Assembly: GCA_038087875.1 (NCBI GenBank)
Contig: CM075989.1
Location: 14,014,001-14,078,000, forward strand
From: Malacoraja senta
Taxonomy: Eukaryota
Length of the DNA: 64,000 nt
Reading direction: 5' to 3'
Position numbers and translations under genes: made by a program. Each line of letters starts with the position of its first letter. Positions within the stretch are counted from its first letter, which is position 1. Positions 563 to 64,000 of this stretch are shown here, piece after piece. Below the pieces are notes generated by a model. That model saw only the letters and a program-made list of their open reading frames with translations. It made no database searches and was not told where the DNA came from.

Positions 563-1456
563 GTAAGTAGTAAGTAAGTAAGTAAGTAAGTTTTATTTAT
601 ATAGCACGTTTTAAATCAACTCGTGTTGAAACCAAAGTGCTTTACATAAAATAAATAATAAGTTTCCGTACATCCATAGAAAAAGATTAAAATAGAAAAA
701 TTGACACAACACATTATAGAATTCAACACAAATGTCCCCCCACAACAGAATCAAAATTTTCCACTGTGGGTAAAGGCACCAGAAAGTTTAGTCCTCTTCC
801 TCTGTGACCACTCGAGGTCGGGCCCTATTTGTGGCCTTGCAGCCAGTCCGATGTTTTCAGGCCCTCTTGCCGTGTAGCTGGAACTCCGGCGTCGGGTGGA
901 CATTCCTCAGCGGCTTGGAAATGTCTGGAGCGGCCGCTTCCTCCCTGGAGACTGCGGCACCCGAGGTCCCCAGGCCGCGCTGGTTGGAGCTCCGACTCTG
1001 GCGATCTCAGCAAGAGGTCCCAGGTTCCGCGGTGTTCTAAATCCAGCGCCGCCCGCCCGCAGCTGGGTGCTCCGCAGACCGCAGCTCCTCGATGTTGGAG
1101 TCGGCGGTCACCGCACTCCGGAGCTTACCGCTCGGCGACCCGGTAAGGCATTGCCCGCTCCGTGTTGGTGTCCCAGTGCAGTGCCACTGCCGAAGCTGTA
1201 GTCTCGGCTGGTCCCGACAGGAAACGCCGCTCCAGTCCGATGGTAGGCCGCGAGGAAGGGGCGAAGAAACAGCTCGGAGGGAAGCTGCCAATCCGACCAG
1301 AAGGGACTAGGAAATAAAGTTTCCCCCATTCCCCTCCCCCACCCACCACATAAAAGACCTCCAACTAACATTTTGTTTTTTAACAGGACTAAAAAATAAA
1401 ATAAAAAATGATGAAAGGGCGGACTGCAGGCAGAGCAGCCATATACAACGGCGCCC
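563..1456 (-). mobile_element. Non-autonomous GC-rich retroelement with an L2-like 3' tail
   Basis: Minus-strand 3' end TGTAAAGCACTTTGG...GTGCTATATAAATAAAAC followed by (TTAC)n. GC-rich body. 5' head GGCGCC...CTGCAGTCCG followed by a T-tract and G-run, like the elements at 18.3-19.1 kb and 42.1-42.3 kb. Confidence 0.6.
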
Positions 1457-1494
1457 TACTCCTGAACATCCGCCATCTTGGTTGGTAGCTTCTC

Positions 1495-1900
1495 CATGGA
1501 TTGTCACCTTGTCGTGGTGGAGAAGCTTGGTCCTGATATCCTGAGAACGATGCCATCTGGAGCTATGCTCCTGGTAGGACCACCCATGGCGATAAGGTCG
1601 AGCCGGAGGACTCTGACAAAGAGCAATCCAACCAAGACCACAACGGCGGAACAGGCGGAGGATGATGGCTGACCTTAGTGGAGCGTCACAGCGGCTGGGA
1701 AGGCAGATGAAGGATGCAGTAGAAAAGGGTCTCCGGTTGTTTTGGACTCCATGCCACTGGATCCTGACCCAGATCTGTCAAGGATGCTGTGGTGGCTGTC
1801 TGTGCACCAGACTCCCCATGTTAAGCAAAGTCACGCACTGGCGTCCTCCGACCATGGAGACACCCATGGTCAGCCATGAGCAAAGGGGGCCTAAGAAGGT
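1495..1900 (+). mobile_element. RTE-clade (Expander/Rex3-like) 5'-region-derived fragment
   Basis: CACCTTGTCGTGGTGGAG...GAGCTATGCTCCTGGTAGG..CACCCATGGC...CTGACAAAGAGCAATCC resembles RTE 5' UTRs as I recall them. Confidence 0.4.
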
Positions 1901-2104
1901 AGCTTCAAAGGTTGATTAGTGCATGTTAAAAATCCCACCTGAATCAATAACTAATTCTCCCTGGAAAAACAAGAAATGTGAACCGATGCTGATAAATTCT
2001 TTGTGCATAAACAGGGAGTTCCGGGAATATGATTAAACTAAGAAAATGAGCCAAAAACAATACAAGGAATAACAAAAAATCCTCTTCCTTGTCTGCAGTA
2101 TCTT

Positions 2105-3845
2105 ATAGATACATAGATACATAGAAAATAGGTGCAGGAGTAGGCCATTTGGCCCTTCGAGCCTGCACCGCCATTCAATATGATCATGGCTGATCATCCA
2201 ACTCAGTATCCCGTACCTGCCTTCTCTCCATACCCCCTGATCCCCTTAGCCACAAGGGCCACATCCAACTCCCTCTTAAATATAGCCAATGAACTGGCCT
2301 CAACTACCCTCTGTGGCAGAGAGTTCCAGAGATTCACCACTCTCTGTGTGAAAAAGTTTTTCCTCATCTCGGTCTTAAAGGATTTCCCCCTTATCCTTAA
2401 GCTGTGACCCCTTGTCCTGGACTTCCCCAACATCGGGAACAATCTTCCTGCATCTAGCCTGTCCAACCCCATAAGAATTTTGTACGTTTCTATAGGATCC
2501 CCTCTCAACCTCCTAAATTCTAGCGAGTATAAGCCAAGTCTATCCAGTCTTTCTTCATATGAAAGTCCTTACATCCCAGGAATCAGTCTGGTGAACCTTC
2601 TCTGCACTCCCTCTATGGCTATAATGTCCTTCCTCAGATTTGGAGACCAAAACTGTACGCAATACTCCAGGTGTGGTCTCACCAAGACCCTGTACAACTG
2701 CAGTAGAACCTCCCTGCTCCTATACTCAAATCCTTTTGCTATGAAAGCTAACATACCATTTGCTTTCTTCACTGCCTGCTGCACCTGCATGCCTACTTTC
2801 AATGACTGGTGTACCATGACACCTAGGTCTCGCTGCATCTCCCCATTTCCTAATCGGCCACCATTTAGATAATAGTCTGCTTTCCTGTTTTTGCCACCAA
2901 AGTGGATAACCTCACATTTATCCACATTATACTGCATCTGCCAAACATTTGCCCACTCACCCAGCCTATCCAAGTCACCTTGCAGTCTCCTAGCATCCTC
3001 CTCACAGCTAACACTGCCCCCCCAGCTTAGTGTCATCCGCAAACTTGGAGATGTTGCCTTCAATTCCCTCATCCAGCTCATTAATATAAATTGTAAATAG
3101 CCTGGGTTCCAGCACTGAGCCTTGCGGTACCCCACTAGTCACTGCGTGCCATTGTGAAAAGGACCCGTTTACTCCTACTCTTTGCTTCCTGTTTGCCAGC
3201 CAGTTCTCTATCCACATCAATACTGAACCCCCAATACCGTGTGCTTTAAGTTTGTACACTAATCTCTTATGTGGTACCTTGTCGAAAGCCTTCTGAAAGT
3301 CCAGATACAACACATCCACTGGTTCTCCCCTATCCACTCTACTAGTTACATCCTCGAAAAATTCTATAAGATTCGTCAGACATGATTTACCTTTCGTAAA
3401 TCCATGCTGAATTTGTCCAATGATTTCACCACTTTCCAAATGTGCTGCTATCCCATCTTTAATAAGTGATTCTAGCAGTTTCCCCACTACCAATGTTAGA
3501 CTAACTGGTCTGTAATTCCCCGTTTTCTCTCCCTCCCTTCTTAAAAAGTGGGGTTACGTTTGCTACCCTCCAATCCTCAGGAACTACTCCAGAATCTAAA
3601 GAGTTTTGAAAAATTATCACTAATGCATCCACTATTTTCTGGAGCTACTTCCTTAAGTACTCTGGGATGCAGCCTATCTGGCCCTGGTGATTTATCGGCC
3701 TTTAATCCATTCAATTTACCCAACACCACTTCCCGACTAACCTGGATTTCACTCAGTTCCTCCATCTCCTTTTAGAACTAATGGCCAGTCAATCTTGGCT
3801 AATTCACGTCTCATACCCTCAAAGTTACCTTTCTTTAAGTTCAGA
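2105..3845 (-). mobile_element. Young CR1-clade LINE, 5'-truncated ORF2 (RT) with frameshifts and an internal deletion
   Basis: ORFs 3008-3493, 2569-3135 and 2203-2508 carry [29 protein letters not shown] and [11 protein letters not shown]. 3' tail is (ATAGATAC)n at ~2105-2124. 3773-3845 encodes the more upstream piece LNLKKGNFEGMRRELAKIDW. Confidence 0.95.
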
Positions 3846-56325: not shown

Positions 56326-56375
56326 AGGCTGGGATCCCCTGAATTAAGGTATTAATTTTTGTTATTTCGTTAAAT

Positions 56376-57380
56376 ACCCCAGCTATTTACAATATATATT
56401 AATGATTTGGACGAGGGAATTGAATGCAACATCTCCAAGTTTGCGGATGACACAAAGCTGGGGGGCAGTGTTAGCTGTGAGGAGGATGCTAGGAGGCTGC
56501 AAGGTGACTTGGATAGGCTGGGTGAGTGGGAAAATGCATGGCAGATGCAGTATAATGTGGTTAAATGTGAGGTTATCCACTTTGGTGGCAAAAACAGGAA
56601 AGTAGACTATTATCTGAATGGTGGCCGATTAGGAAAAGGGGAGATGCAACGAGACCTGGGTGTCATGGTACACCAGTCATTGAAAGTAGGCATGCAGGTG
56701 CATCAGGCAGTGAAGAAAGCGAATGGTATGTTAGCATTCATAGCAAAAGGATTTGAGTATAGGAGCAGGGAGGTTCTACTGCAGTTGTACAGGGTCTTGG
56801 TGAGACCACACCTGGAGTATTGCGTACAGTTTTTGTCTCCTAATCTGAGGAAAGACATTCTTGCCATAGAGGGAGTACAGAGAAGGTTCACCAGACTGAT
56901 TCCTGGGATGTCAGGACTTTCATATGAAGAAAGACTGGATAGACTTGGCTTGTACTCGCTAGAATTTAGAAGATTGAGGGGGGATCTTATAGAAACTTAC
57001 AAAATTCTTAAGGGGTTGGACAGGCTAGATGCAGGAAGATTGTTCCCGATGTTGGGGAAGTCCAGAACAAGGGGTCACAGTTTAAGGATAAGGGGGAAAT
57101 CTTTTAGGACTGAGATGAGAAAAACATTTTTCACACAGAGAGTGGTGAATCTCTGGAATTCTCTGCCACAGAAGGTAGTTGAGGCCAGTTCATTGGCTAT
57201 ATTTAAGAGGGAATTAGATGTGGCCCTTGTGGCTAAAGGTATCAGGGGGTATGGAGAGAAGGCAGGTACAGGATACTGAGTTGGATGATCAGCCATGATC
57301 ATATTGAATGGCGGTGCAGGCTCGAAGGGCCGAATGGCCTACTCCTGCACCTATTTTCTATGTTTCTATGTTTCTATGTT
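56376..57380 (+). mobile_element. Young CR1-clade LINE 3' portion (second subfamily)
   Basis: ORF 56407-57279 RT C-terminal half. Tail is (TTTCTATG)n, versus the ATAGATAC-type tail of the other young copies. Confidence 0.95.
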
Positions 57381-57574
57381 TTACACAGCTGGCATAATAT
57401 TGTTCTGTGGCTTGGTTGTCATAATGGTGTGGTCTTTATGAAGGCAATTGTCACATGATATTCATTTCAAATAGTTTCACCTACAGGAATTAAAGACTTT
57501 AAGTACCACCATGTAATTATCTGATGTTTTGTAAGACAGTAAACCCCCGTTATATAGGATCATAGGGGGGAGGG

Positions 57575-58137
57575 TGAAAGAGCTAATAGTCAAATCTAAT
57601 AGTCAAATCTAATAGTCAAATCTAAAATTGAGTCGTTCTTCTACAAAAGCATGGTCCAGTAAAACAAAAGAATGGCTCGGTGCCAAGTCTGAATGACATT
57701 GTAAATTATATGGAACACAATATGGAGGACAGGTTGTCTTTTCAATAAAGACGTTAAGATGGCAGCCTGCGTAATAACATGCGCTTTTCAATGCCATAAA
57801 GAAGCCAAGATTGAAAAAAATAGCTGACGCTCCAGAGATAAGTAATAACTTGTTATTGGATGAGCTTGATTTGGACCCAGCTTTCATATATTCTGAAAGG
57901 CTGCAGAATCTTTCAGTCATGCCATATTCAGACTTGGTAGGAGTGTTTTACTGATAAGAAAAATGTATAATTGTGCGAACTGCCCTTTGTTCTGTGAGTG
58001 GGAGCCCGAGAAGCACTGAGCAACATTTGTGCTCATTGTAGATCGCCACTCCCGTCTGACAAATCAATTAAAGATTGCTATGGTTTTACCTTTAACAGTT
58101 TTTGTTGCTATCTGCTTTTAAGAAATGAACTTTGACA
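57575..58137 (+). repeat. 5' LTR
   Basis: TG...CA (ends AACTTTGACA). TATA-like TGTATAA ~57964 and poly(A)-signal-like ATTAAA ~58067. The 13-bp unit CTAATAGTCAAAT is tripled relative to the 3' LTR. About 20 substitutions in ~400 aligned bases versus the 3' LTR, counted by eye. Confidence 0.9.
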
Positions 58138-58139
58138 TT

Positions 58140-58159
58140 TGGCTGTAGTCGGCAGGGAT
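58140..58159 (+). promoter_or_regulatory. Primer-binding site, tRNA-Ser-like
   Basis: TGGCTGTAGTCGGCAGGGAT, 2 nt after the LTR end. It matches the complement of the tRNA-Ser 3' end (TGGCGTAGTCGGCAGGAT, recalled) with two single-base insertions. Confidence 0.8.
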
Positions 58160-58718
58160 CTAGCTGGGACCAGCAACAGATGACTGAGTAAGAGGGTGCA
58201 GTTGACCGGGATCTGAAAGGGAGAAAACTGAGCTCTAGTCGGACCCTTTGAGTCTGGCCTCCCGAAGAAGCTCCCGGTAAAAAAAAACCTACGGTCCCTC
58301 AGTCTGTGGTTGGCCAGGTTCCAGACAAGATCCTTAGAAGCAGACAGCAAGGGTAAGACCACTTGTATAAAGGATTGGCTTGTGTATTGGAAATGAATAA
58401 AGGATTGGGCACGGCAGACTAAAGAGGTTTTGTCACAATTAAAGGATTGGACACGGGAGACTTCAAAGTTTTTGTCACTAAGTGTATTGGAAAGACAAGA
58501 TGTGTTGAAAAGAAGTGTATTGAAAAGACAATGTGTCTTGAGGAGACAGTGTTTTGACAAGACTTGTGAATTTGCTACCAGGGAGAGTAGCCAGATTGGG
58601 CTTTATAGACTGCAAAGGTTTGTTACAAATAAAGGATTGGGCTTAACAGGCTGAAAAAGTTTGTTACAATTTGTGTACTAAGTTGTGTACTAAGAAGTGA
58701 TTTGGAGATTCGATAAAC

Positions 58719-58990
58719 ATGGAAATAATTTGGATAAGAGTGACGGAAAGACAGCTGTACAACACATGTGTTATTTGAATCCTCAGAACAACAAGGATTA
58801 TAGAATATTGAATTATAAATTGACCAACGTTTGAGTAATGTGTCTTGACCAGTGGGAGGCATATGAAATGTGGAGACTATTGAAGGCAGAGAGAGAGAGA
58901 GAGAAAGAGGCAGAAAATAAGTGGGTGGGGACGCGAGATAGTAGTTAGATGGATTATGCTTTTTAAAGAGGTATTGAATTGTGGAATAAA
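58719..58990 (+). pseudogene. gag: gag matrix remnant
   Basis: Restoring one G after the ATG gives MGNNLDKSDGKTAVQHMCYLNPQNNKDYRILNYKL; after a further frameshift, RLSNVS*PVGGI*NVETIE. That is an MG start plus a WPxxG-like class-I matrix motif with W codons mutated to TGA. Confidence 0.55.
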
Positions 58991-60240
58991 TACAGAACTA
59001 TTAAAAGAATGGAAAGTACTTCAGACGGAATGCCAGTGGGCAGAGGAATAGGAGATGGGCTAAGGCAGAGAAAGAAAGCGCTGATAAGAGTTCGCAGAAC
59101 AAAGCCGGTACCAATAAGTCTTCTCGAGGTCCACTCGAGACCCTATGTCTGGCAATGGCGACCCTGTCTATAGAAGAAGGGGGAGGTGGCCAATCACAAT
59201 CTGGATCACTGTCCAATCACAGCTCAGACCACTCCCATTTTGAACATTAGCGCGCCCACCATTACATTAAACTACTATCTTTGTTCATTTTAAATTCTCA
59301 CTCCAACAAAAAAGACGACTTTTGCAAACCTCCCAGTCCTAGTTCACAAATTCTGCAAATTGGTTCCCATAGAAACAAAGATTTTTTTAAACCGAACGAC
59401 TTTTGTCAGATAAGGGAGGAGAATGTAAAATTAACACGGAGAGACGTCTCTAATGTTTTGCACGATTTTTTTGGAAACGAGGGGGTTGCGCCACTTTGGC
59501 TAATTCTCAGATAAATTTGTGTAATTGATGTATATTTTGCCTGTTTTTTGTATTACTTTTCTTTCAATGTTCGAAGGGTAGTATGTGTTCAAAACCAAAA
59601 CCAAAAGCTCTCTAAAAAGGTATTTTAAAAAGCTCTTTCAAGTTGTCACCCATCCAAGTTCTGGCTCTTATTTGATTACTTGAATCTCCATTTTCTTTCG
59701 AGTTGTCACTCATCCAAGTTCTGTTTCTTATCTAACTCAAGTGCTCAGTGTTCTTTTCAAGGCATTGCTACCAAGATACTAGCAGCTTCATTTTCCTGTG
59801 TTCAGGATTTCACTGTCTTTTTAATTTCTCCCAAAACCTATCGGGATACTTGACATCCAGGGCCAGGCTATATTCATCTATATACCCCTTTTGATGAAAT
59901 GGTCCATGTCAGATGAAATGGGATGTCATTGAATGAGTTTGCAATCGATGAAAATTAATTGTTTATTCTTTGTTTTCTCTTAACTTTAATTTTTTTTCCC
60001 TATTTCATACCTTTTGAATTGAGTTCAAATAGAGACCTGAATTCCACGATGGCCATGTAGCATTCAGGTAGATGTGTTAGATGAGATTGGAGATGCCTTT
60101 ATCTCAGAACAAAATCTGTTAATTTGAAATTGTAAATTTGGGGAGATAGATTGGAACAATTGGGAATATTTTTAAATTGTTTTTTTAATAATTATCTATT
60201 TTTTAAAGGGTCTGCCTTATAGGTAGTTAATTAGTGATGT

Positions 60241-60555
60241 CACATCCCCCACAACCAGTAGAATTCTGGATTAATGGAGGGAATGAATAGGACACTAAAG
60301 AGCGTGGAAGTTAGTTATGACCTACAGGCCCACAGCAATGAATTAATTACATACACACAGCAATTAAGCACAACCTTGTCAGTCTTGCATTCACAGGGGT
60401 TGAAAACGCAGAAGCCACTGCCAGTTGAACACAGACACCGTCCATACTACTAGGATCGGACAAAATTTGGACTGTGTTGGAGGGGACTGTACCAGGTGTG
60501 ACTATGACACCAACCACCGTGAAGATTGAAGATTACCCCAGTTGGAGACATCTGA
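60241..60555 (+). pseudogene. pol: Retroviral integrase remnants (core fragment and C-terminal domain)
   Basis: HIP...SGLMEGMNRTLK (60241-60300) resembles PQSSGQVERMNRTLK. Then ELITYTQQLSTTLSVLHSQ and, with frameshifts, W.G.YQV..MTPTTVKIEDYPSWRH, resembling gammaretroviral WKGPYTVLLTTPTALKV...WIH. Confidence 0.8.
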
Positions 60556-60570
60556 TAAGATTGACTGTAA

Positions 60571-60681
60571 ATGGAGGAGAACCAAGAAAGGACAATGGGG
60601 CTATTGACCCTACTTTTTATCCTGAGGTTGGCCCAGATGGGCTGGGCTTCGGGAAACAACTGCTGCACCAAGACGTCCTGA
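60571..60681 (+). pseudogene. env: Putative env signal peptide remnant
   Basis: MEENQERTMGLLTLLFILRLAQMGWASGNNCCTKTS*, immediately after the integrase end. Hydrophobic core with a G-W-A cleavage-like site. The frame stops a few codons into the cargo. Confidence 0.6.
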
Positions 60682-60722
60682 ATAAGGCTGACAACTGTCC
60701 TTATGTTTATAACACTGACCAA
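60672..60722 (+). pseudogene. THBS2: Captured thrombospondin type-3 repeat fragment
   Basis: [17 protein letters not shown] resembles THBS2 [17 protein letters not shown] as recalled. Confidence 0.7.
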
Positions 60723-60780
60723 GATGGATCCATTACCACAGGTTCTTGAAGTAACCAGAAAAAGGTGGCAGCTTATCCCG

Positions 60781-61058
60781 GAGCTACAGATCGAGCTGAA
60801 ACAGATGAGAAATGTGCTCACCAATGCCCAGTCTGAAAATGACCATCTCGCTTCCATCACACAGCAGCTGAAGGAGAGCAATCAGGTTGTGGAGTTGAAA
60901 AGCCTTGATTTTGGAGTGCAATTCAGTTACAGAACTGGATTGAGGTAAATCCCAGCCGGGATCAAAGTGAGGAGCTGAGTTGGGATGGATCAGACAGCCA
61001 GTTGGCATTGATGGAGAAGGAAGAAGAATGCTGGTTTCACACACTGATGGACAACTTG
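60781..61058 (+). pseudogene. Captured, scrambled fragments of a CRACR2A/CRACR2B/RAB44-family (EF-hand coiled-coil Rab) mRNA
   Basis: [32 protein letters not shown] and [18 protein letters not shown] resemble CRACR2A segments (recalled: TKAENTKL, LTRIISQLQEA, GEDEEAQFRMLMDRL). Confidence 0.6.
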
Positions 61059-61084
61059 GAAGAAAGAACGTCTCGATTTGTGAA

Positions 61085-61412
61085 AAGAAACTACATTTGT
61101 GATGAATGTGGACAGACTTTCAAACAGCGGAAACAACTGTCAGTTCACCAACTGCGCCATACTGGAGCAAAACCTTTGCAGTGTGAAGTTTGTGGTTTCT
61201 AGTGCAGGCAAAGAGCATCCTTGAAATACCATATGACCAAGCACAAGCCAGAAGCTGAACTTGAATTTGCTTGTGACCAATGTGAGAAGCGATTTGAGAA
61301 GGCTCACAATTTGAATGTTCATATGTCCATGGTTCATCCCTCGACCCAGAGTACAGATAAAAACAAACCTATTGAAATTGAATCATCAGCTAAGTTTGGA
61401 AACATTAATTAA
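61085..61412 (+). pseudogene. ZNF276: Captured ZNF276 C2H2 fingers 3-5 and C-terminus
   Basis: [84 protein letters not shown], nearly identical to ZNF276 as recalled. Premature TAG at 61200-61202; no introns. Confidence 0.92.
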
Positions 61413-61479
61413 ACAGGAACCCAGTTAATAGTTATTCAACAGCTAAATAATGAGTCTAAAGGATCTTGCACCCCTTTTC

Positions 61480-61735
61480 AATGTTAGCAAGACACAAAGG
61501 ATTAACATGAATAAATGCAATCAAGCCAGGCTCACCTATAATAGGTAGAGCAAAGGAAAGGTTATTGTGGAGAACATAGTTCTGAGCATTATAGCACACC
61601 AGTTCCAGAGACAAAGTCCAATGTCTGCAATGGGGTAGAGGTGCATCAGGCAGAATACTAGCAATTGGAAGGACTGTTCAGAACACTGATAACAGAGGGG
61701 AAGAAGCTAATTTGTGTTGTAGTGAGGCAGGGTTC
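61480..61735 (-). mobile_element. Antisense Rex/L2-like 3' fragment inside the cargo
   Basis: Reverse-complement similarity to 30850-31100 (CTTGATTGCATT.ATGTT, TTTGT.TCTGGAACTGGTGTG, TTCTGAAC.GTCC). Confidence 0.6.
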
Positions 61736-61742
61736 AAGTTTG

Positions 61743-62521
61743 CCACAGTTACATCCTGGACATGCATTCAAATCGCAGTGTTGTTTTGAATGAGGGACAG
61801 TGCCCATCCAGTATAAATAAGGACTCAATGGAGGAAGTTCTGGATGGTTCAATAACCCTTTCACCTCGGAATGGAACAGTGACTGAAAATGGTGAGGGTG
61901 ATAATGTTGCGAAGCATCAACCTGCCCCAGTGTTAGCAGACTTTCAGCCTTGTACATATAGTGGAACCACTTCGGCGGATGTGGACAACTGGGAATCCCC
62001 ATTGAAGGATATGTTCTTGCGCTCAGATCCTGAATATACAGAGTGCTCTTGGGAAAAAGTTCAGGTACAAGATGCAACTCAACCATTAAATGTGAAAAAA
62101 AAACAGTTAACTGCAATGAAGCATCTTGTTCTATAAGAAATGATGTTGTGGATGGATTGGAGTCCAGTGATCTTTCTGAAAGGTATTTATCAAGTGAAGA
62201 TAACAGAGAAACAAAAGTTAAGAATGGCTCTTCAGATGAGTCTTTTCAACCATATTGGAAGAAGAAGAGTAAGTTACCAGTTAAACGTGGCCGGAAACCA
62301 AAGTCAAACTTGGAAAGGGAAGATTTCCCCACCATGTATCGATGTCAGTATAAGGGTTGCTGTGCTGTTTACAGAGGAGTTGATGAACTTAAGAAACATA
62401 TAAAAGAGCAGCATGAAGAGGTACGTGAAAGACCTTGCCCCCACCCAGGAGGTAACAAGGTGTTTCTGATTGATCGCTACCAGCAGCACCATGTAAAGCT
62501 GATCCATACAGAAGAAAGAAC
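61743..62521 (+). pseudogene. ZNF276: Captured ZNF276 central region and fingers 1-2
   Basis: HSYILDM..., SSDLSE..LSSEDN...SSDESFQPY, EREDFPTMYRCQYKGCCAVYRGVDELKKHIKEQHEEVRERPCPHPGGNKVFLIDRYQQHHVKLIHTEER. Probable frameshift at the A-run ~62095-62103, second-finger C to G, intronless. Confidence 0.9.
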
Positions 62522-62687
62522 ATCTTTACAGATCAGGAGGAAGTGCAAAGCCTTTGGTCACAACTTCGGGAAGACAAACCACATTTGATCAACAATCTTG
62601 AAGCATTTTGAGCTCTATCGTATGACCAAGGGTCTAGAGAGAGAGAAGCTGAACATTTTGAAACAGATGGAGCTCTTGAAAGAGATT
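62522..62687 (+). pseudogene. Captured CRACR2A/CRACR2B/RAB44-family fragments
   Basis: [29 protein letters not shown] (too short for the ORF track), then [25 protein letters not shown]. These resemble recalled CRACR2A [23 protein letters not shown] and [25 protein letters not shown]. Confidence 0.75.
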
Positions 62688-63375
62688 ATGCATAACCCTA
62701 TCCAGGAAGACAATGACTCTGACCTGGTGGGTAATCAGTGTGATGACAATCAGGACATTGATGAGGATGGCAATGATGGCGTTTCTGATGAGAAGGACAA
62801 TTGCCGTTTTGTTCCCAACCCTGACCAGATCGATGCCGATGGTGACAGCAGAGGAGACAACTGCAAAGACGACTTTGACAACAACATCCCAGATATCTAT
62901 GACATGTGCCCCGAGAACAGTGCCATCAGTGAGGCTGACCTGAGGAAGTTCCAAAGGGGACGATGCAGATTGTTCCTAAGTGGGTAGTGCACAACAAGGG
63001 CAGGTAGTGCACAACAATGTTACCTTCTACGTCAACAGAGACCACAATCTATGCTGGCTTTGTCTTTGGCTTGCAGTCCAGCAGCCGCTTCTACGTGGTG
63101 ATGTGGAAGCAGGCCATCCAAACCTACTGGGAGGAGAAGCTGTCCAAACCCATGGATACGCTAGCGTCTAGACCAAGGTGATGAACCCCACCACAGGATA
63201 AGAGGGGGGAGCACCTCACCTGTGCAACGATCTACGAAGAGACTGGCAACACCCTCGGACAGGTGCGAACTTTATGGCACAACCCCAATATCGGCTGAAA
63301 GGATTACACCGCCTACAGGTGGCACCTGATCCATTGACCCTAAACAAGCTTCATCAGGATGGTTGTCAATGGTTG
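62688..63375 (+). pseudogene. THBS2: Captured thrombospondin (subgroup A, THBS2-like) type-3 repeats and C-terminal lectin domain, internally deleted
   Basis: [87 protein letters not shown], then [55 protein letters not shown] with stops and frameshifts. Intronless. Confidence 0.9.
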
Positions 63376-63399
63376 TCAATGAAGAGAGTGAGAACTGGT

Positions 63400-63557
63400 T
63401 GCCAGTTGGTTTGATGGACTTTGGGGTAGTATTGAACTGGTAGCCATACCTTTTGTTTGATGGACTTTGGGGTACTGTGATATATTATGGCTCTATCATT
63501 CTGCTAATCATTGCTCTAATACTTGCGACCATTGTGTATACCTACCGAGGACTGTGA
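63400..63557 (+). pseudogene. env: env transmembrane-anchor remnant
   Basis: ASWFDGLWG, and after a 20-bp duplication (GTTTGATGGACTTTGGGGTA twice) FDGLWGTVIYYGSIILLIIALILATIVYTYRGL*. This is a Trp-containing membrane-proximal stretch plus a hydrophobic anchor directly before the PPT. Confidence 0.7.
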
Positions 63558-63574
63558 ATGTTATCACATTTGAT

Positions 63575-63587
63575 AAAAAGCAGGGAA
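63575..63587 (+). promoter_or_regulatory. Polypurine tract
   Basis: AAAAAGCAGGGAA immediately before TGAAAGA of the 3' LTR (MLV-like junction). Confidence 0.85.
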
Positions 63588-64000
63588 TGAAAGAGCTAAT
63601 AGTCAAATCTAAATTGGAGTCATTCTTCTACAAAAGCATGGCCTAGAAAAACAAAAGAATGACATTGTAAATTATATGGAACACAATATGGAGGACAGAT
63701 TGTCTTTTCAATAAAGACATTAAGATGGTAGCCTGCGTAATAACATGTGCTTCTTTTCAAGGCCATAAAGATGCCAAGATTGAAAAAAATAGCTGATGCT
63801 CCAGAGATAAGTAATAACTTGTTATTGGATGAGCTTGATTTGGACCCAGCTTTCTTATATTCTGAAAGGCTGCAGAATATTTCAGTCATGCCATATTCAG
63901 ACTTGGTAGGAGTGTTATACTGATAAGAAAAATGTATAATTATGCTAATTGTCCTTTGTTCTGTGAGTGGGAGCCCGAGAAGCACTGAGCAACGTTTGTG
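63588..64000 (+). repeat. 3' LTR (runs off the window end)
   Basis: Direct repeat of 57575-58030 with a 21-bp deletion and a 3-bp insertion. Confidence 0.92.

What the first reader, a model, noticed from the sequence alone, without database searches (positions are those of the whole stretch)
57575..64000. Endogenous retrovirus whose env ectodomain is replaced by a mosaic of three captured cellular mRNAs
Seen in sequence: proviral order LTR, PBS(Ser), a leader with a donor-like AGG|GTAAGA (58353), gag remnant, integrase remnant, signal peptide, ~2.7-kb cargo, TM anchor, PPT, LTR. The cargo (60672-63375) is intronless ZNF276, THBS2-like and CRACR2/RAB44-family coding pieces, all sense to the provirus. 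Established: retroviruses transduce host mRNAs by co-packaging and RT template switching (acutely transforming viruses; LTR-mediated retroposition), and the resulting defective genomes keep only cis elements. Inference: this is a germline, helper-dependent transducing ERV in a cartilaginous fish that shuffled three unrelated genes. It may belong to a multicopy non-autonomous family acting as an mRNA capture/shuffling vector. I do not know of a description of this in chondrichthyans.
Basis: partly seen in the sequence, partly recalled or inferred. Interest (0 to 1): 0.95.

Follow-up and report, generated by a model that had tools for sequence, protein, structure and literature searches.

The report
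Gutted skate retrovirus carrying host genes
This is one copy of an old, many-copy family of gutted endogenous retroviruses in a skate-like fish whose envelope gene was replaced by a scrambled patchwork of intron-free pieces of four host genes, a rare but already known kind of event.

Summary
A 6.5-kb LTR element lies at 57575-64104, so its 3' LTR runs 104 bases past the window. It has a tRNA-Ser primer site, a polypurine tract and a 4-base target duplication.

Comparison with a complete gamma-type ERV of the same genome confirms several remnants:
- the leader and splice donor;
- the gag N-terminus;
- the integrase C-terminus;
- the env signal peptide and membrane anchor.

The cargo comes from four host genes, not three: THBS2-like, CRACR2A (EFCAB4B), BICD2-like and ZNF276. 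All pieces are sense and nested. ZNF276 is circularly permuted and flanked by the same 11-base word. Cargo identity to the parental ZNF276 gene stops exactly at exon borders, which shows a cDNA origin.

Every cargo junction recurs in 26-31 other genomic copies, so this is not an assembly chimera. It is a family of at least about 100 copies that took up the mosaic once and then amplified. LTR pairs differ by 6-7%.

No frame spans the cargo. No helper and no alternative cargo were found.

Precedents exist: crocodilian ERVs carrying nectin3 or KITLG, and maize Bs1. I class it as a new member of a known kind, of moderate interest.

The parts
57575..58137 (+). 5' LTR (563 bp, TG...CA), with a 13-bp unit repeated 3.3 times near its start
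   Evidence: more than 40 other copies at 92-95% identity
58140..58160 (+). primer binding site, complementary to the 3' end of tRNA-Ser (one extra base in this copy)
   Evidence: (L028 form)
58160..58365 (+). leader with splice-donor-like AAGGGTAAGACCA at 58351-58363
   Evidence: 70-73% DNA identity to the leader of a complete related ERV; donor word conserved there
58719..59042 (+). gag N-terminal remnant, broken by stops
   Evidence: tblastn with the relative's Gag, aa 38-161, E 4e-14
59043..60300 (+). internal stretch of unresolved origin, A+T-rich, conserved across the family
   Evidence: none of the ORFs scanned from this stretch hit a Pfam family
60307..60554 (+). integrase C-terminal remnant, split over two reading frames
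   Evidence: tblastn with the relative's IN C-terminus (MLVIN_C): E 4e-10 here, down to 3.6e-10 in other copies
60595..60654 (+). env signal-peptide remnant; in most copies the frame ends a few codons into the cargo
   Evidence: by eye it resembles the N-terminus of the relative's Env
60655..60722 (+). THBS2-like piece a (end of a type 3 repeat)
   Evidence: Pfam TSP_3, weak; lies about 15 residues before piece b in the THBS2 alignment
60723..60753 (+). tentative CRACR2A piece (about aa 466-475 of shark EFCAB4B)
   Evidence: tblastn E 0.03 only; not recovered at E <= 0.1 in the larger set
60754..60901 (+). BICD2-like piece (aa 74-80 by eye, then aa 103-143)
   Evidence: Pfam BicD E 7e-11; skate BICD2-like at 88-90%; its ends are marked by loose ends of contigs in X15 and X17 that run on beyond both ends and read, by eye, as BICD2 coding sequence
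60915..61069 (+). CRACR2A pieces: about aa 477-497 (tentative), then about aa 140-160
   Evidence: E 0.6, and by eye; contigs of X1 and X2 join 61059/61070 directly to 62515/62523
61084..61412 (+). ZNF276 aa 519-631 with its own stop codon
   Evidence: tblastn, 83%
61413..61597 (+). ZNF276 3' UTR
   Evidence: a ZNF276-order contig in run X17 runs on to 61473
61598..61708 (+). fragment of a very abundant dispersed repeat
   Evidence: summed depth 20-70 times that of neighbouring bins in four runs, with loose ends at 61600, 61643 and 61708
61690..62519 (+). ZNF276 about aa 104-121 (by eye), then aa 244-519; lacks aa 427-440; crosses the parental exon border at aa 365/366
62520..62690 (+). CRACR2A aa 161-193, then aa 338-366, joined out of frame
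   Evidence: 28 loci each
62691..63375 (+). THBS2-like piece b: last type 3 repeats and C-terminal domain up to profile position 158 of 198, with several frame breaks
   Evidence: Pfam TSP_3 and TSP_C; PDB THBS2 E 1.5e-44
63376..63559 (+). env membrane-proximal stretch, membrane anchor and short tail with stop; holds a 23-bp duplication
   Evidence: tblastx and tblastn to the C-terminus of a TLV_coat Env; (repeat D8)
63574..63587 (+). polypurine tract
63588..64000 (+). 3' LTR; runs on to window position 64104, beyond the window

Best explanation
The element is one copy of a non-autonomous family derived from a class I (gamma/epsilon-like) endogenous retrovirus of a skate-like cartilaginous fish.

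It keeps only:
- the cis parts: LTRs, tRNA-Ser PBS, leader with splice donor, PPT;
- short relics of gag, integrase and env (signal peptide, membrane anchor).

Most of gag, all of pol except the integrase tail, and the env ectodomain are gone. In place of the env ectodomain sits a 2.7-kb non-coding patchwork of spliced host mRNA pieces.

Inferred order of events: a THBS2-like fragment entered env. A CRACR2A fragment, itself interrupted by a BICD2-like piece, entered the THBS2 fragment. A ZNF276 fragment entered the CRACR2A fragment at a shared 11-base word.

The most likely mechanism is copy-choice during reverse transcription. Reverse transcriptase switched between the viral RNA and co-packaged host mRNAs at short homologies, in one or a few replication cycles.

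The finished mosaic was then copied at least about 100 times. Integrase inserted the copies (4-bp target duplications), and a helper retrovirus must have supplied the proteins. The burst is dated by LTR pairs that differ by 6-7%.

Shown: anatomy, gene identities, lack of introns for ZNF276, single origin, multicopy state.
Inferred: template switching, order of insertions, helper dependence, age in years.

The confidence given (0.75) is for the whole statement. It is about 0.9 for the identity of the element and its cargo, and about 0.55 for template switching as the mechanism.
For: Retroviral frame:
- LTR pair, PPT, TG...CA termini.
- PBS matches tRNA-Ser.
- 4-bp TSD exact in 8 of 12 solo LTRs and in 1 of 3 full copies, with 3 of 4 in two.
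- Homology to a complete ERV of the same genome carrying MLVIN_C, a TLV_coat Env and a CCHC Gag: leader 70-73% DNA identity, gag E 4e-14, integrase E 4e-10, Env anchor.

Non-autonomous: only host-type families scored strongly (zf-C2H2 and related zinc fingers, TSP_3, BicD). None of the 105 ORFs from family copies matched a retroviral family.

Cargo identity:
- ZNF276: skate proteins, E 1e-75.
- THBS2: 155 bits, against 115 for THBS1.
- CRACR2A/EFCAB4B: E 2.7e-8, with names and EF-hand plus Ras architecture.
- BICD2-like: 88-90%.

cDNA origin:
- The parental ZNF276 gene lies on contig C2, with introns of about 8 and 6 kb.
- Cargo identity (93.7% here, 96.1% in copy L062) stops exactly at the AG and GT borders of the exon for aa 183-365, while the cargo runs on into neighbouring exons.
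- A THBS paralogue has introns where the cargo is continuous.

Single origin: each of 12 cargo junctions is spanned in 26-31 other loci. All 12 3' LTRs with internal sequence have the THBS/anchor stretch upstream. Only 4 of 366 sites separate the parent from at least 90% of 27 copies.

Microhomology: GAAGAAAGAAC stands at both ends of the ZNF276 insert. Contigs in two other organisms join the two CRACR2A sides directly.

Age: LTR K2P is 0.063, 0.067 and 0.074 in three copies.
Against: - No helper with the same LTR was found. The closest complete ERV shares leader and protein relics but not the LTR. Five other env-bearing ERV groups share nothing.
- The parental THBS2-like gene was not found in this genome. 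The best true genes are only 72-81% identical.
- Intron loss was not tested for BICD2 or CRACR2A.
- Two small CRACR2A pieces rest on weak matches (E 0.03 and 0.6; not recovered).
- The TSD of this copy matches in only 3 of 4 bases.
- Template switching cannot be told from DNA-level insertion of cDNA pieces by sequence alone.
- At most 40-150 of hundreds to thousands of candidate places were scored in each genome search. Rarer subfamilies could have been missed.
Confidence: 0.75

Rival explanations
1. The host pieces are processed pseudogenes that a LINE machinery inserted one after another into a single ERV copy, which was amplified afterwards.
For: The nesting looks like insert-within-insert. 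An 11-base direct repeat flanks the ZNF276 insert like a target duplication. A LINE-type RT fragment lies just upstream, at 56374-57276.
Against: No piece ends in poly(A). BICD2, CRACR2A and THBS2 are short internal fragments without mRNA 3' ends. ZNF276 is permuted, with its 3' UTR in the middle of the insert. The 11-base word is itself part of both ZNF276 and the CRACR2A side, which fits homology-guided switching better than a target duplication.
Confidence: 0.08
2. cDNA or RNA fragments were patched into a chromosomal ERV copy during double-strand-break repair (templated insertions). Reverse transcription inside a virus particle was not involved.
For: Microhomology and a 14-base filler at the ZNF276 junction fit end joining as well as copy choice. 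Several very short pieces (30-150 bases) are typical of templated insertions.
Against: All pieces are in the sense orientation of the provirus, which co-packaged RNA templates predict and random repair does not. Four genes would have to enter at one site in one progenitor. The precise replacement of env between signal peptide and anchor resembles known transductions (PMC4299795, passages read).
Confidence: 0.12
3. The mosaic is an assembly artefact: a chimera of ERV, pseudogene and gene sequences.
For: Repeats are hard to assemble. No run holds more than 0.41 of the sampled words, and no long read of this locus could be laid.
Against: Every junction recurs in 26-31 other loci on many contigs. 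Full copies have their own 4-bp target duplications. Contigs from two other coded organisms cover all 30 bins of the internal region.
Confidence: 0.01

Closest known systems
CrocERV31 lineage with captured nectin3, and CrocERV29 with KIT-ligand (Chong et al. 2014, PMC4299795; abstract and passages read)
   Same: A germline ERV that took up spliced host mRNA. In the nectin3 case the cargo stands in place of env, and several genomic copies exist.
   Different: There, one gene is captured nearly whole, with an open frame under purifying selection and only a few copies. Here there are fragments of four genes, scrambled and non-coding, gag and pol are also lost, and there are at least about 100 copies. 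The host is a cartilaginous fish.
Maize Bs1 LTR retroelement (review PMC13317346, passages read)
   Same: A non-autonomous LTR element carrying segments of three different host genes, none full length, taken up by transduction.
   Different: Bs1 is a plant retrotransposon with no env, is low in copy number, and its pieces form a hybrid open frame that is expressed. No sequence relationship.
Acutely transforming (oncogene-transducing) retroviruses (recalled, no call)
   Same: Defective, helper-dependent genomes in which viral genes are replaced by intron-free host sequence through read-through, co-packaging and non-homologous RT recombination.
   Different: Those are exogenous and somatic, carry one functional oncogene and are not fixed in the germline. 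Here the cargo has no intact frame and the element is a fixed multicopy germline family.
Non-autonomous ERV families moved in trans, such as mouse ETn/MusD and VL30 (recalled, no call)
   Same: LTR, PBS, leader and PPT are kept, coding capacity is lost, and copy number is high through a helper's proteins.
   Different: Their inner sequence is not a recognisable patchwork of host coding exons.

Membership tests
Endogenous retrovirus, class I (gamma/epsilon-like) | Two LTRs in direct orientation with TG...CA ends | tested here: met
Endogenous retrovirus, class I (gamma/epsilon-like) | PBS complementary to a host tRNA 3' end, next to the 5' LTR | tested here: met
   4 of 5 genomic matches to the PBS-derived motif are tRNA-Ser genes; this copy has one extra base
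Endogenous retrovirus, class I (gamma/epsilon-like) | Polypurine tract before the 3' LTR | tested here: met
   read in sequence
Endogenous retrovirus, class I (gamma/epsilon-like) | 4-bp target site duplication (that this size is typical of the class is recalled) | tested here: met
   exact in 8 of 12 solo LTRs; full copies 4/4, 3/4 and 3/4
Endogenous retrovirus, class I (gamma/epsilon-like) | gag, pol and env homologous to retroviral genes | tested here: met
   relics only: gag E 4e-14, IN E 4e-10, Env anchor, against an ERV with MLVIN_C, TLV_coat and zf-CCHC
Endogenous retrovirus, class I (gamma/epsilon-like) | Own coding capacity (autonomous) | tested here: not met
   0 of 105 ORFs of family copies hit a retroviral Pfam family, so the element is a non-autonomous derivative
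Host-mRNA-transducing retroelement | Cargo homologous to host genes, in sense orientation, inside the transcription unit | tested here: met
Host-mRNA-transducing retroelement | Cargo lacks the introns of the parental genes | tested here: met
   ZNF276: direct. THBS: only through a paralogue's exon structure. BICD2 and CRACR2A: not tested
Host-mRNA-transducing retroelement | Cargo replaces viral genes | tested here: met
   cargo lies between the env signal peptide and the membrane anchor
Host-mRNA-transducing retroelement | Helper virus with matching cis elements | tested here: inconclusive
   a related complete ERV was found but its LTR is unlike; five other groups show no match
LINE-mediated processed pseudogene | mRNA 3' end with poly(A), flanked by a long target duplication | tested here: not met
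   no poly(A) at any piece; the 11-base repeat at the ZNF276 insert is part of both partners

The most novel reading that the evidence does not exclude
The family may be only the most abundant branch of a wider set of env-less ERV shuttles in skates and rays that repeatedly picked up and reshuffled different host mRNAs. That would be a vertebrate, retroviral counterpart of plant Pack-type elements, and a source of exon shuffling. Only 40-150 of 784-3756 first-look candidates were scored in each search, so subfamilies with other cargo are not excluded.
Probability: 0.1. Interest if true: 0.75.

Novelty: new member of a known kind. Interest (0 to 1): 0.45.

Why it matters
- It is a well-preserved fossil of multi-step retroviral recombination with host mRNAs. 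Four genes are nested like Russian dolls, and the ZNF276 insert is bounded by the same 11-base word on both sides. The path of the polymerase can almost be read off the sequence.
- It shows that a defective, cargo-bearing ERV can still become a high-copy family in a vertebrate germline.
- It scatters about 100 or more copies of zinc-finger, thrombospondin and adaptor-protein exons over the genome. These will mislead gene annotation ("ZNF276-like", "thrombospondin-like" models) and could feed exon shuffling.
- My searches found no description in cartilaginous fish. The kind of event is known from crocodilians and maize.

Tried and rejected
- PDB sequence searches found nothing for the BICD piece, the CRACR2A piece or the integrase relic. 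One search gave only a designed repeat protein.
- The word-index protein search with the CRACR2A piece found nothing. The full HMMER search then did.
- Pfam found no retroviral family in the window's ORFs or in 105 ORFs of other copies. The relics were shown only by direct comparison with a complete ERV.
- Helper search: MLVIN_C gave 1746 candidates and TLV_coat 853. Five env-bearing groups (L070-L074) share nothing with the element. Of six integrase tails, only the L075 group matched, and its LTR is unlike ours.
- THBS parent: the TSP_C search gave true genes at C2:44.77 Mb and C1:218.15 Mb, only 72-81% identical. Three other candidates were element copies.
- ARAGORN found no tRNA gene in the window.
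- Earlier findings of this scan: none.
- Sequencing runs: no RNA holder listed. Runs X15 and X17 are only guessed to be RNA. Their contigs mostly show what look like the parental ZNF276, THBS and BICD2 messages. X15 also has thin cover of the leader, which I do not read as expression. No piece spans the whole stretch, so long-read contiguity of this locus could not be tested.
- The 5' LTR of the C11 copy was not in the stretch fetched (L089).
- Pseudo-envelope idea (signal peptide fused in frame to THBS2 and the anchor): of 23 copies with a readable start, 20 stop within a few codons of the junction. Only 3 read into THBS piece a (two of them identical in sequence), and those copies show small indels at the junction.


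Full report
**What is there**

The window lies on contig C13 of a 1.94-Gb eukaryotic genome.

- **LTRs.** A direct repeat of about 560 bases stands at 57575-58137 and at 63588 onwards. Reading past the window end (L031) shows the second copy ending at window position 64104 with the same TTTGACA. The two LTRs differ at 31 of 513 aligned bases plus 5 indel runs (K2P 0.063). One indel is a 13-base unit present 3.3 times in the 5' LTR.
- **PBS.** Two bases after the 5' LTR comes TGGCTGTAGTCGGCAGG. A cleaner form stands in copy L028. A motif built on that word hits 5 places in the genome and none in the reversed control. ARAGORN of the 5 tRNA-Ser genes, with their 3' ends at the motif. The PBS(Ser) reading is therefore tested and met.
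- **PPT.** A purine run (AAAAAGCAGGGAA) abuts the 3' LTR.
- **Target duplication.** The flanks of this copy are AGGG and AAGG. Across the family the duplication is 4 bases:
  - exact in 8 of 12 solo LTRs;
  - 3 of 4 in one;
  - a 17-base repeat in one;
  - none in one;
  - unreadable in one;
  - GGTG/GGTG and CCCC/CCCG in two other full copies.

**Is it a retrovirus?**

Pfam alone does not say so. No retroviral family was found in the window's ORFs or in 105 ORFs from other copies. PDB searches with the supposed integrase relic were empty.

I therefore looked for real ERVs in the same genome. MLVIN_C gave 1746 first-look candidates and TLV_coat 853.

- Five env-bearing groups share nothing with the element.
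- Of six integrase tails fetched, one group (L075) aligns with the family over about 90 residues in two adjacent frames. E is down to 3.6e-10 in other copies and 4e-10 in the window, at 60307-60554.

I fetched more of that provirus.

- Its leader is 70-73% identical in DNA to 58160-58365.
- Its Gag residues 38-161 match 58721-59042 (E 4e-14).
- The C-terminal membrane anchor of its Env matches 63438-63521.
- A splice-donor-like word, AAGGTAAGACCA, stands at the same leader place as the window's AAGGGTAAGACCA.
- It has a TLV_coat Env, an MLVIN_C integrase and a CCHC Gag.

The element is thus a stripped derivative of a class I, gamma/epsilon-like ERV. That provirus is not the same family, because its 768-base LTR is unlike ours. 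A helper with matching LTRs was not found.

**The cargo**

All pieces read on the + strand.

- **ZNF276.** The best matches are skate proteins (E 1e-75, 75% identity). The protein maps in permuted order:
  - residues 519-631, the stop codon and 3' UTR at 61084 to about 61600;
  - then, after a repeat fragment, residues about 104-121 (by eye) and 244-519 at 61690-62519.

  Copy L062 keeps residues 98-500 in one run.
- **THBS2-like.**
  - Type 3 repeats and the C-terminal domain lie at 62691-63375 (Pfam).
  - PDB scores: THBS2 155 bits, THBS1 115, COMP 113.
  - A short piece at 60655-60722 lies only about 15 residues upstream in the THBS2 alignment.
- **CRACR2A.**
  - The word-index search failed.
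  - The full HMMER search found EF-hand-plus-Ras proteins of 650-760 residues, each matched in two stretches. Their sources name them EF-hand calcium-binding domain-containing protein 4B, or ras and EF-hand domain-containing protein.
  - tBLASTn places shark residues 161-193 at 62516-62614 and residues 338-366 at 62601-62690. Both recur in 28 loci.
- **BICD2-like.** It is:
  - Pfam BicD, E 7e-11;
  - a skate protein at 88% identity;
  - residues 103-143 at 90% identity.
- **Weaker CRACR2A pieces.** Matches flank the BICD2 piece (E 0.03 and 0.6; not recovered). A stretch at about 61000-61069 precedes ZNF276. Contigs of two other organisms join 61059/61070 directly to 62515/62523. The two sides of the ZNF276 insert are therefore contiguous somewhere, as expected for CRACR2A.

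The layout is nested:

THBS2a [ CRACR2A' BICD2 CRACR2A' CRACR2A(~140-160) [ ZNF276(519-end, UTR) repeat ZNF276(~104-519) ] CRACR2A(161-193, 338-366) ] THBS2b

**Spliced origin**

The parental ZNF276 gene is on contig C2:

- exon for residues 1-54 at 152,630,676;
- exon for residues 53-96 at 152,638,812;
- exon for residues 183-365 at 152,645,222, 96% identical to the skate protein and free of stops.

The fetched exon (L063) is bounded by ...TTTGTAG| and |GTAAGA. Cargo identity runs exactly from border to border: 96.1% in L062 and 93.7% in the window copy. Both copies then continue into the neighbouring exons' coding sequence without an intron.

A THBS paralogue (L064) has introns at three places where the cargo is continuous, but it is only 72-78% identical. 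The true parent was not found.

In run X17 (guessed RNA), one contig carries the ZNF276 sequence in natural order across the point where the cargo is permuted. Another carries a THBS message about 92-93% like the cargo. Contigs of X15 and X17 run beyond both ends of the BICD2 piece and read, by eye, as BICD2 coding sequence.

**A family, not a one-off**

| Query | First-look candidates | Scored |
|---|---|---|
| LTR | 784 | 40 (92-95% identity) |
| Cargo | 3756 | 40 |
| Inner part | 1019 | 40 |
| TSP_C profile | 251 | 150 |

- Nine other places cover cargo positions 1-2405 or more at 89-91% identity.
- The TSP_C search gave 158 matches. Most end at profile position 158, the cargo's cut point.
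- These counts are lower bounds by the tool's own statement. I read them as at least about 100 copies.
- Of the 29 other LTR loci:
  - 12 are 3' LTRs, all with the THBS/anchor stretch upstream;
  - 4 are 5' LTRs with leader;
  - 12 are solo LTRs;
  - 1 is complex.
- Each of 12 cargo junctions is spanned in 26-31 other loci.
- In the 366-base ZNF276 exon segment:
  - 27 copies differ from the parent by 3.6-7.4%;
  - they differ from each other by 6.3% on average;
  - only 4 sites separate the parent from at least 90% of copies.

  The mosaic was therefore finished shortly before the burst.
- LTR pairs of three copies give K2P 0.063, 0.067 and 0.074. At an assumed 1e-9 per site per year (not measured for this host), that is roughly 30-37 million years.
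- Twenty runs from 13 studies and nine coded organisms hold 8-41% of the sampled words. Eight of those organisms hold 36% or more. Contigs of organisms A and B cover all 30 bins of the inner region.

**Mechanism**

- GAAGAAAGAAC stands at 61059-61069 and at 62511-62521, the two borders of the ZNF276 insert. The word is part of the ZNF276 coding sequence at residue 519 and of the CRACR2A side.
- An insert that starts and ends at the same point of its own message, flanked by a word shared with the recipient, is what two template switches at one microhomology would give. A single crossover with a circular cDNA would give the same result.
- The repeat-to-ZNF276 junction at 61708 also sits at a shared AGAAGCT-like word.
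- Sense orientation of all pieces, absence of poly(A), and internal fragments without message ends favour copy choice among co-packaged RNAs. LINE-type insertions fit these features less well.
- DNA-level patching during break repair cannot be excluded.

**Coding state**

- The signal-peptide frame stops a few codons into the cargo in 20 of 23 copies with a readable start.
- The two CRACR2A pieces are joined out of frame in nearly all copies.
- ZNF276 keeps its own stop codon, and THBS2b has several frame breaks.
- No frame spans the cargo.

**Standing**

The searches for gene capture by ERVs, for ERVs in sharks and skates, for captured gene fragments in LTR elements, and for the four gene names together with retrovirus found no description of this element.

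The kind of event is in print:

- crocodilian ERVs with captured KIT-ligand and nectin3, the latter replacing env (PMC4299795; abstract and passages);
- maize Bs1, with segments of three host genes (PMC13317346; passages).

I class this as a new member of a known kind. What is notable is the four-gene nesting, the readable switch points and the high copy number.

Noticed in passing
window 56374-57385: A 301-aa open frame with a weak RVT_1 match (E 4e-4, below cut-off). It ends in an 8-bp microsatellite (CTATGTTT x4) just upstream of the ERV. It looks like the 3' end of a non-LTR retrotransposon.
   Followed up: partly
window 61598-61708: In all four runs laid, summed contig depth is 20-70 times that of neighbouring bins, with loose ends at 61600, 61643 and 61708. 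This is a fragment of a very abundant dispersed repeat, sitting between the ZNF276 3' UTR and the ZNF276 5' piece. It meets the ZNF276 piece at a shared AGAAGCT-like word.
   Followed up: partly
window 64182-64255 (in L031/L032, beyond the window): A short dispersed repeat just downstream of the element. It also matches an intron of a THBS paralogue (L064), the flank of a solo LTR (L018) and the flank of the related ERV (L081).
   Followed up: no
L082, L075, L081 (contig C1, about 135.717-135.727 Mb): A related gamma-type ERV with LTRs identical over 768 bases and long open gag (621 aa), pol (1335-aa frame) and env (432 aa) frames. Eight other places show the same 1335-aa frame. Observed only.
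   Followed up: partly
L025 (contig C26): A solo LTR flanked by a 17-base direct repeat instead of the usual 4 bases.
   Followed up: no
L062 (contig C8, 29.90 Mb): An older-looking subfamily copy that keeps ZNF276 aa 98-500 uninterrupted, whereas most copies lack aa 122-243. It lacks about 30 bases of THBS piece a and is interrupted by an inverted solo LTR of the same family.
   Followed up: partly
contigs C385, C124, C2402, C4468, C4083, C3064, C2106: Many short TSP_C matches (profile positions 47-101) carrying the same TAG stop, on small contigs. This suggests tandem or segmental amplification of a partial element.
   Followed up: no
L043:3740-4264 (-): A 175-aa open frame in a 750-base segment that does not match the window copy. 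It has no Pfam family, and it is unknown whether it is a nested repeat or other cargo.
   Followed up: no
window 62283/62284: The cargo lacks a 37-40-base stretch (ZNF276 aa 427-440) that is present in a ZNF276-order contig of run X17 and in some DNA contigs of X2. This may reflect an alternative splice form of the captured message.
   Followed up: no
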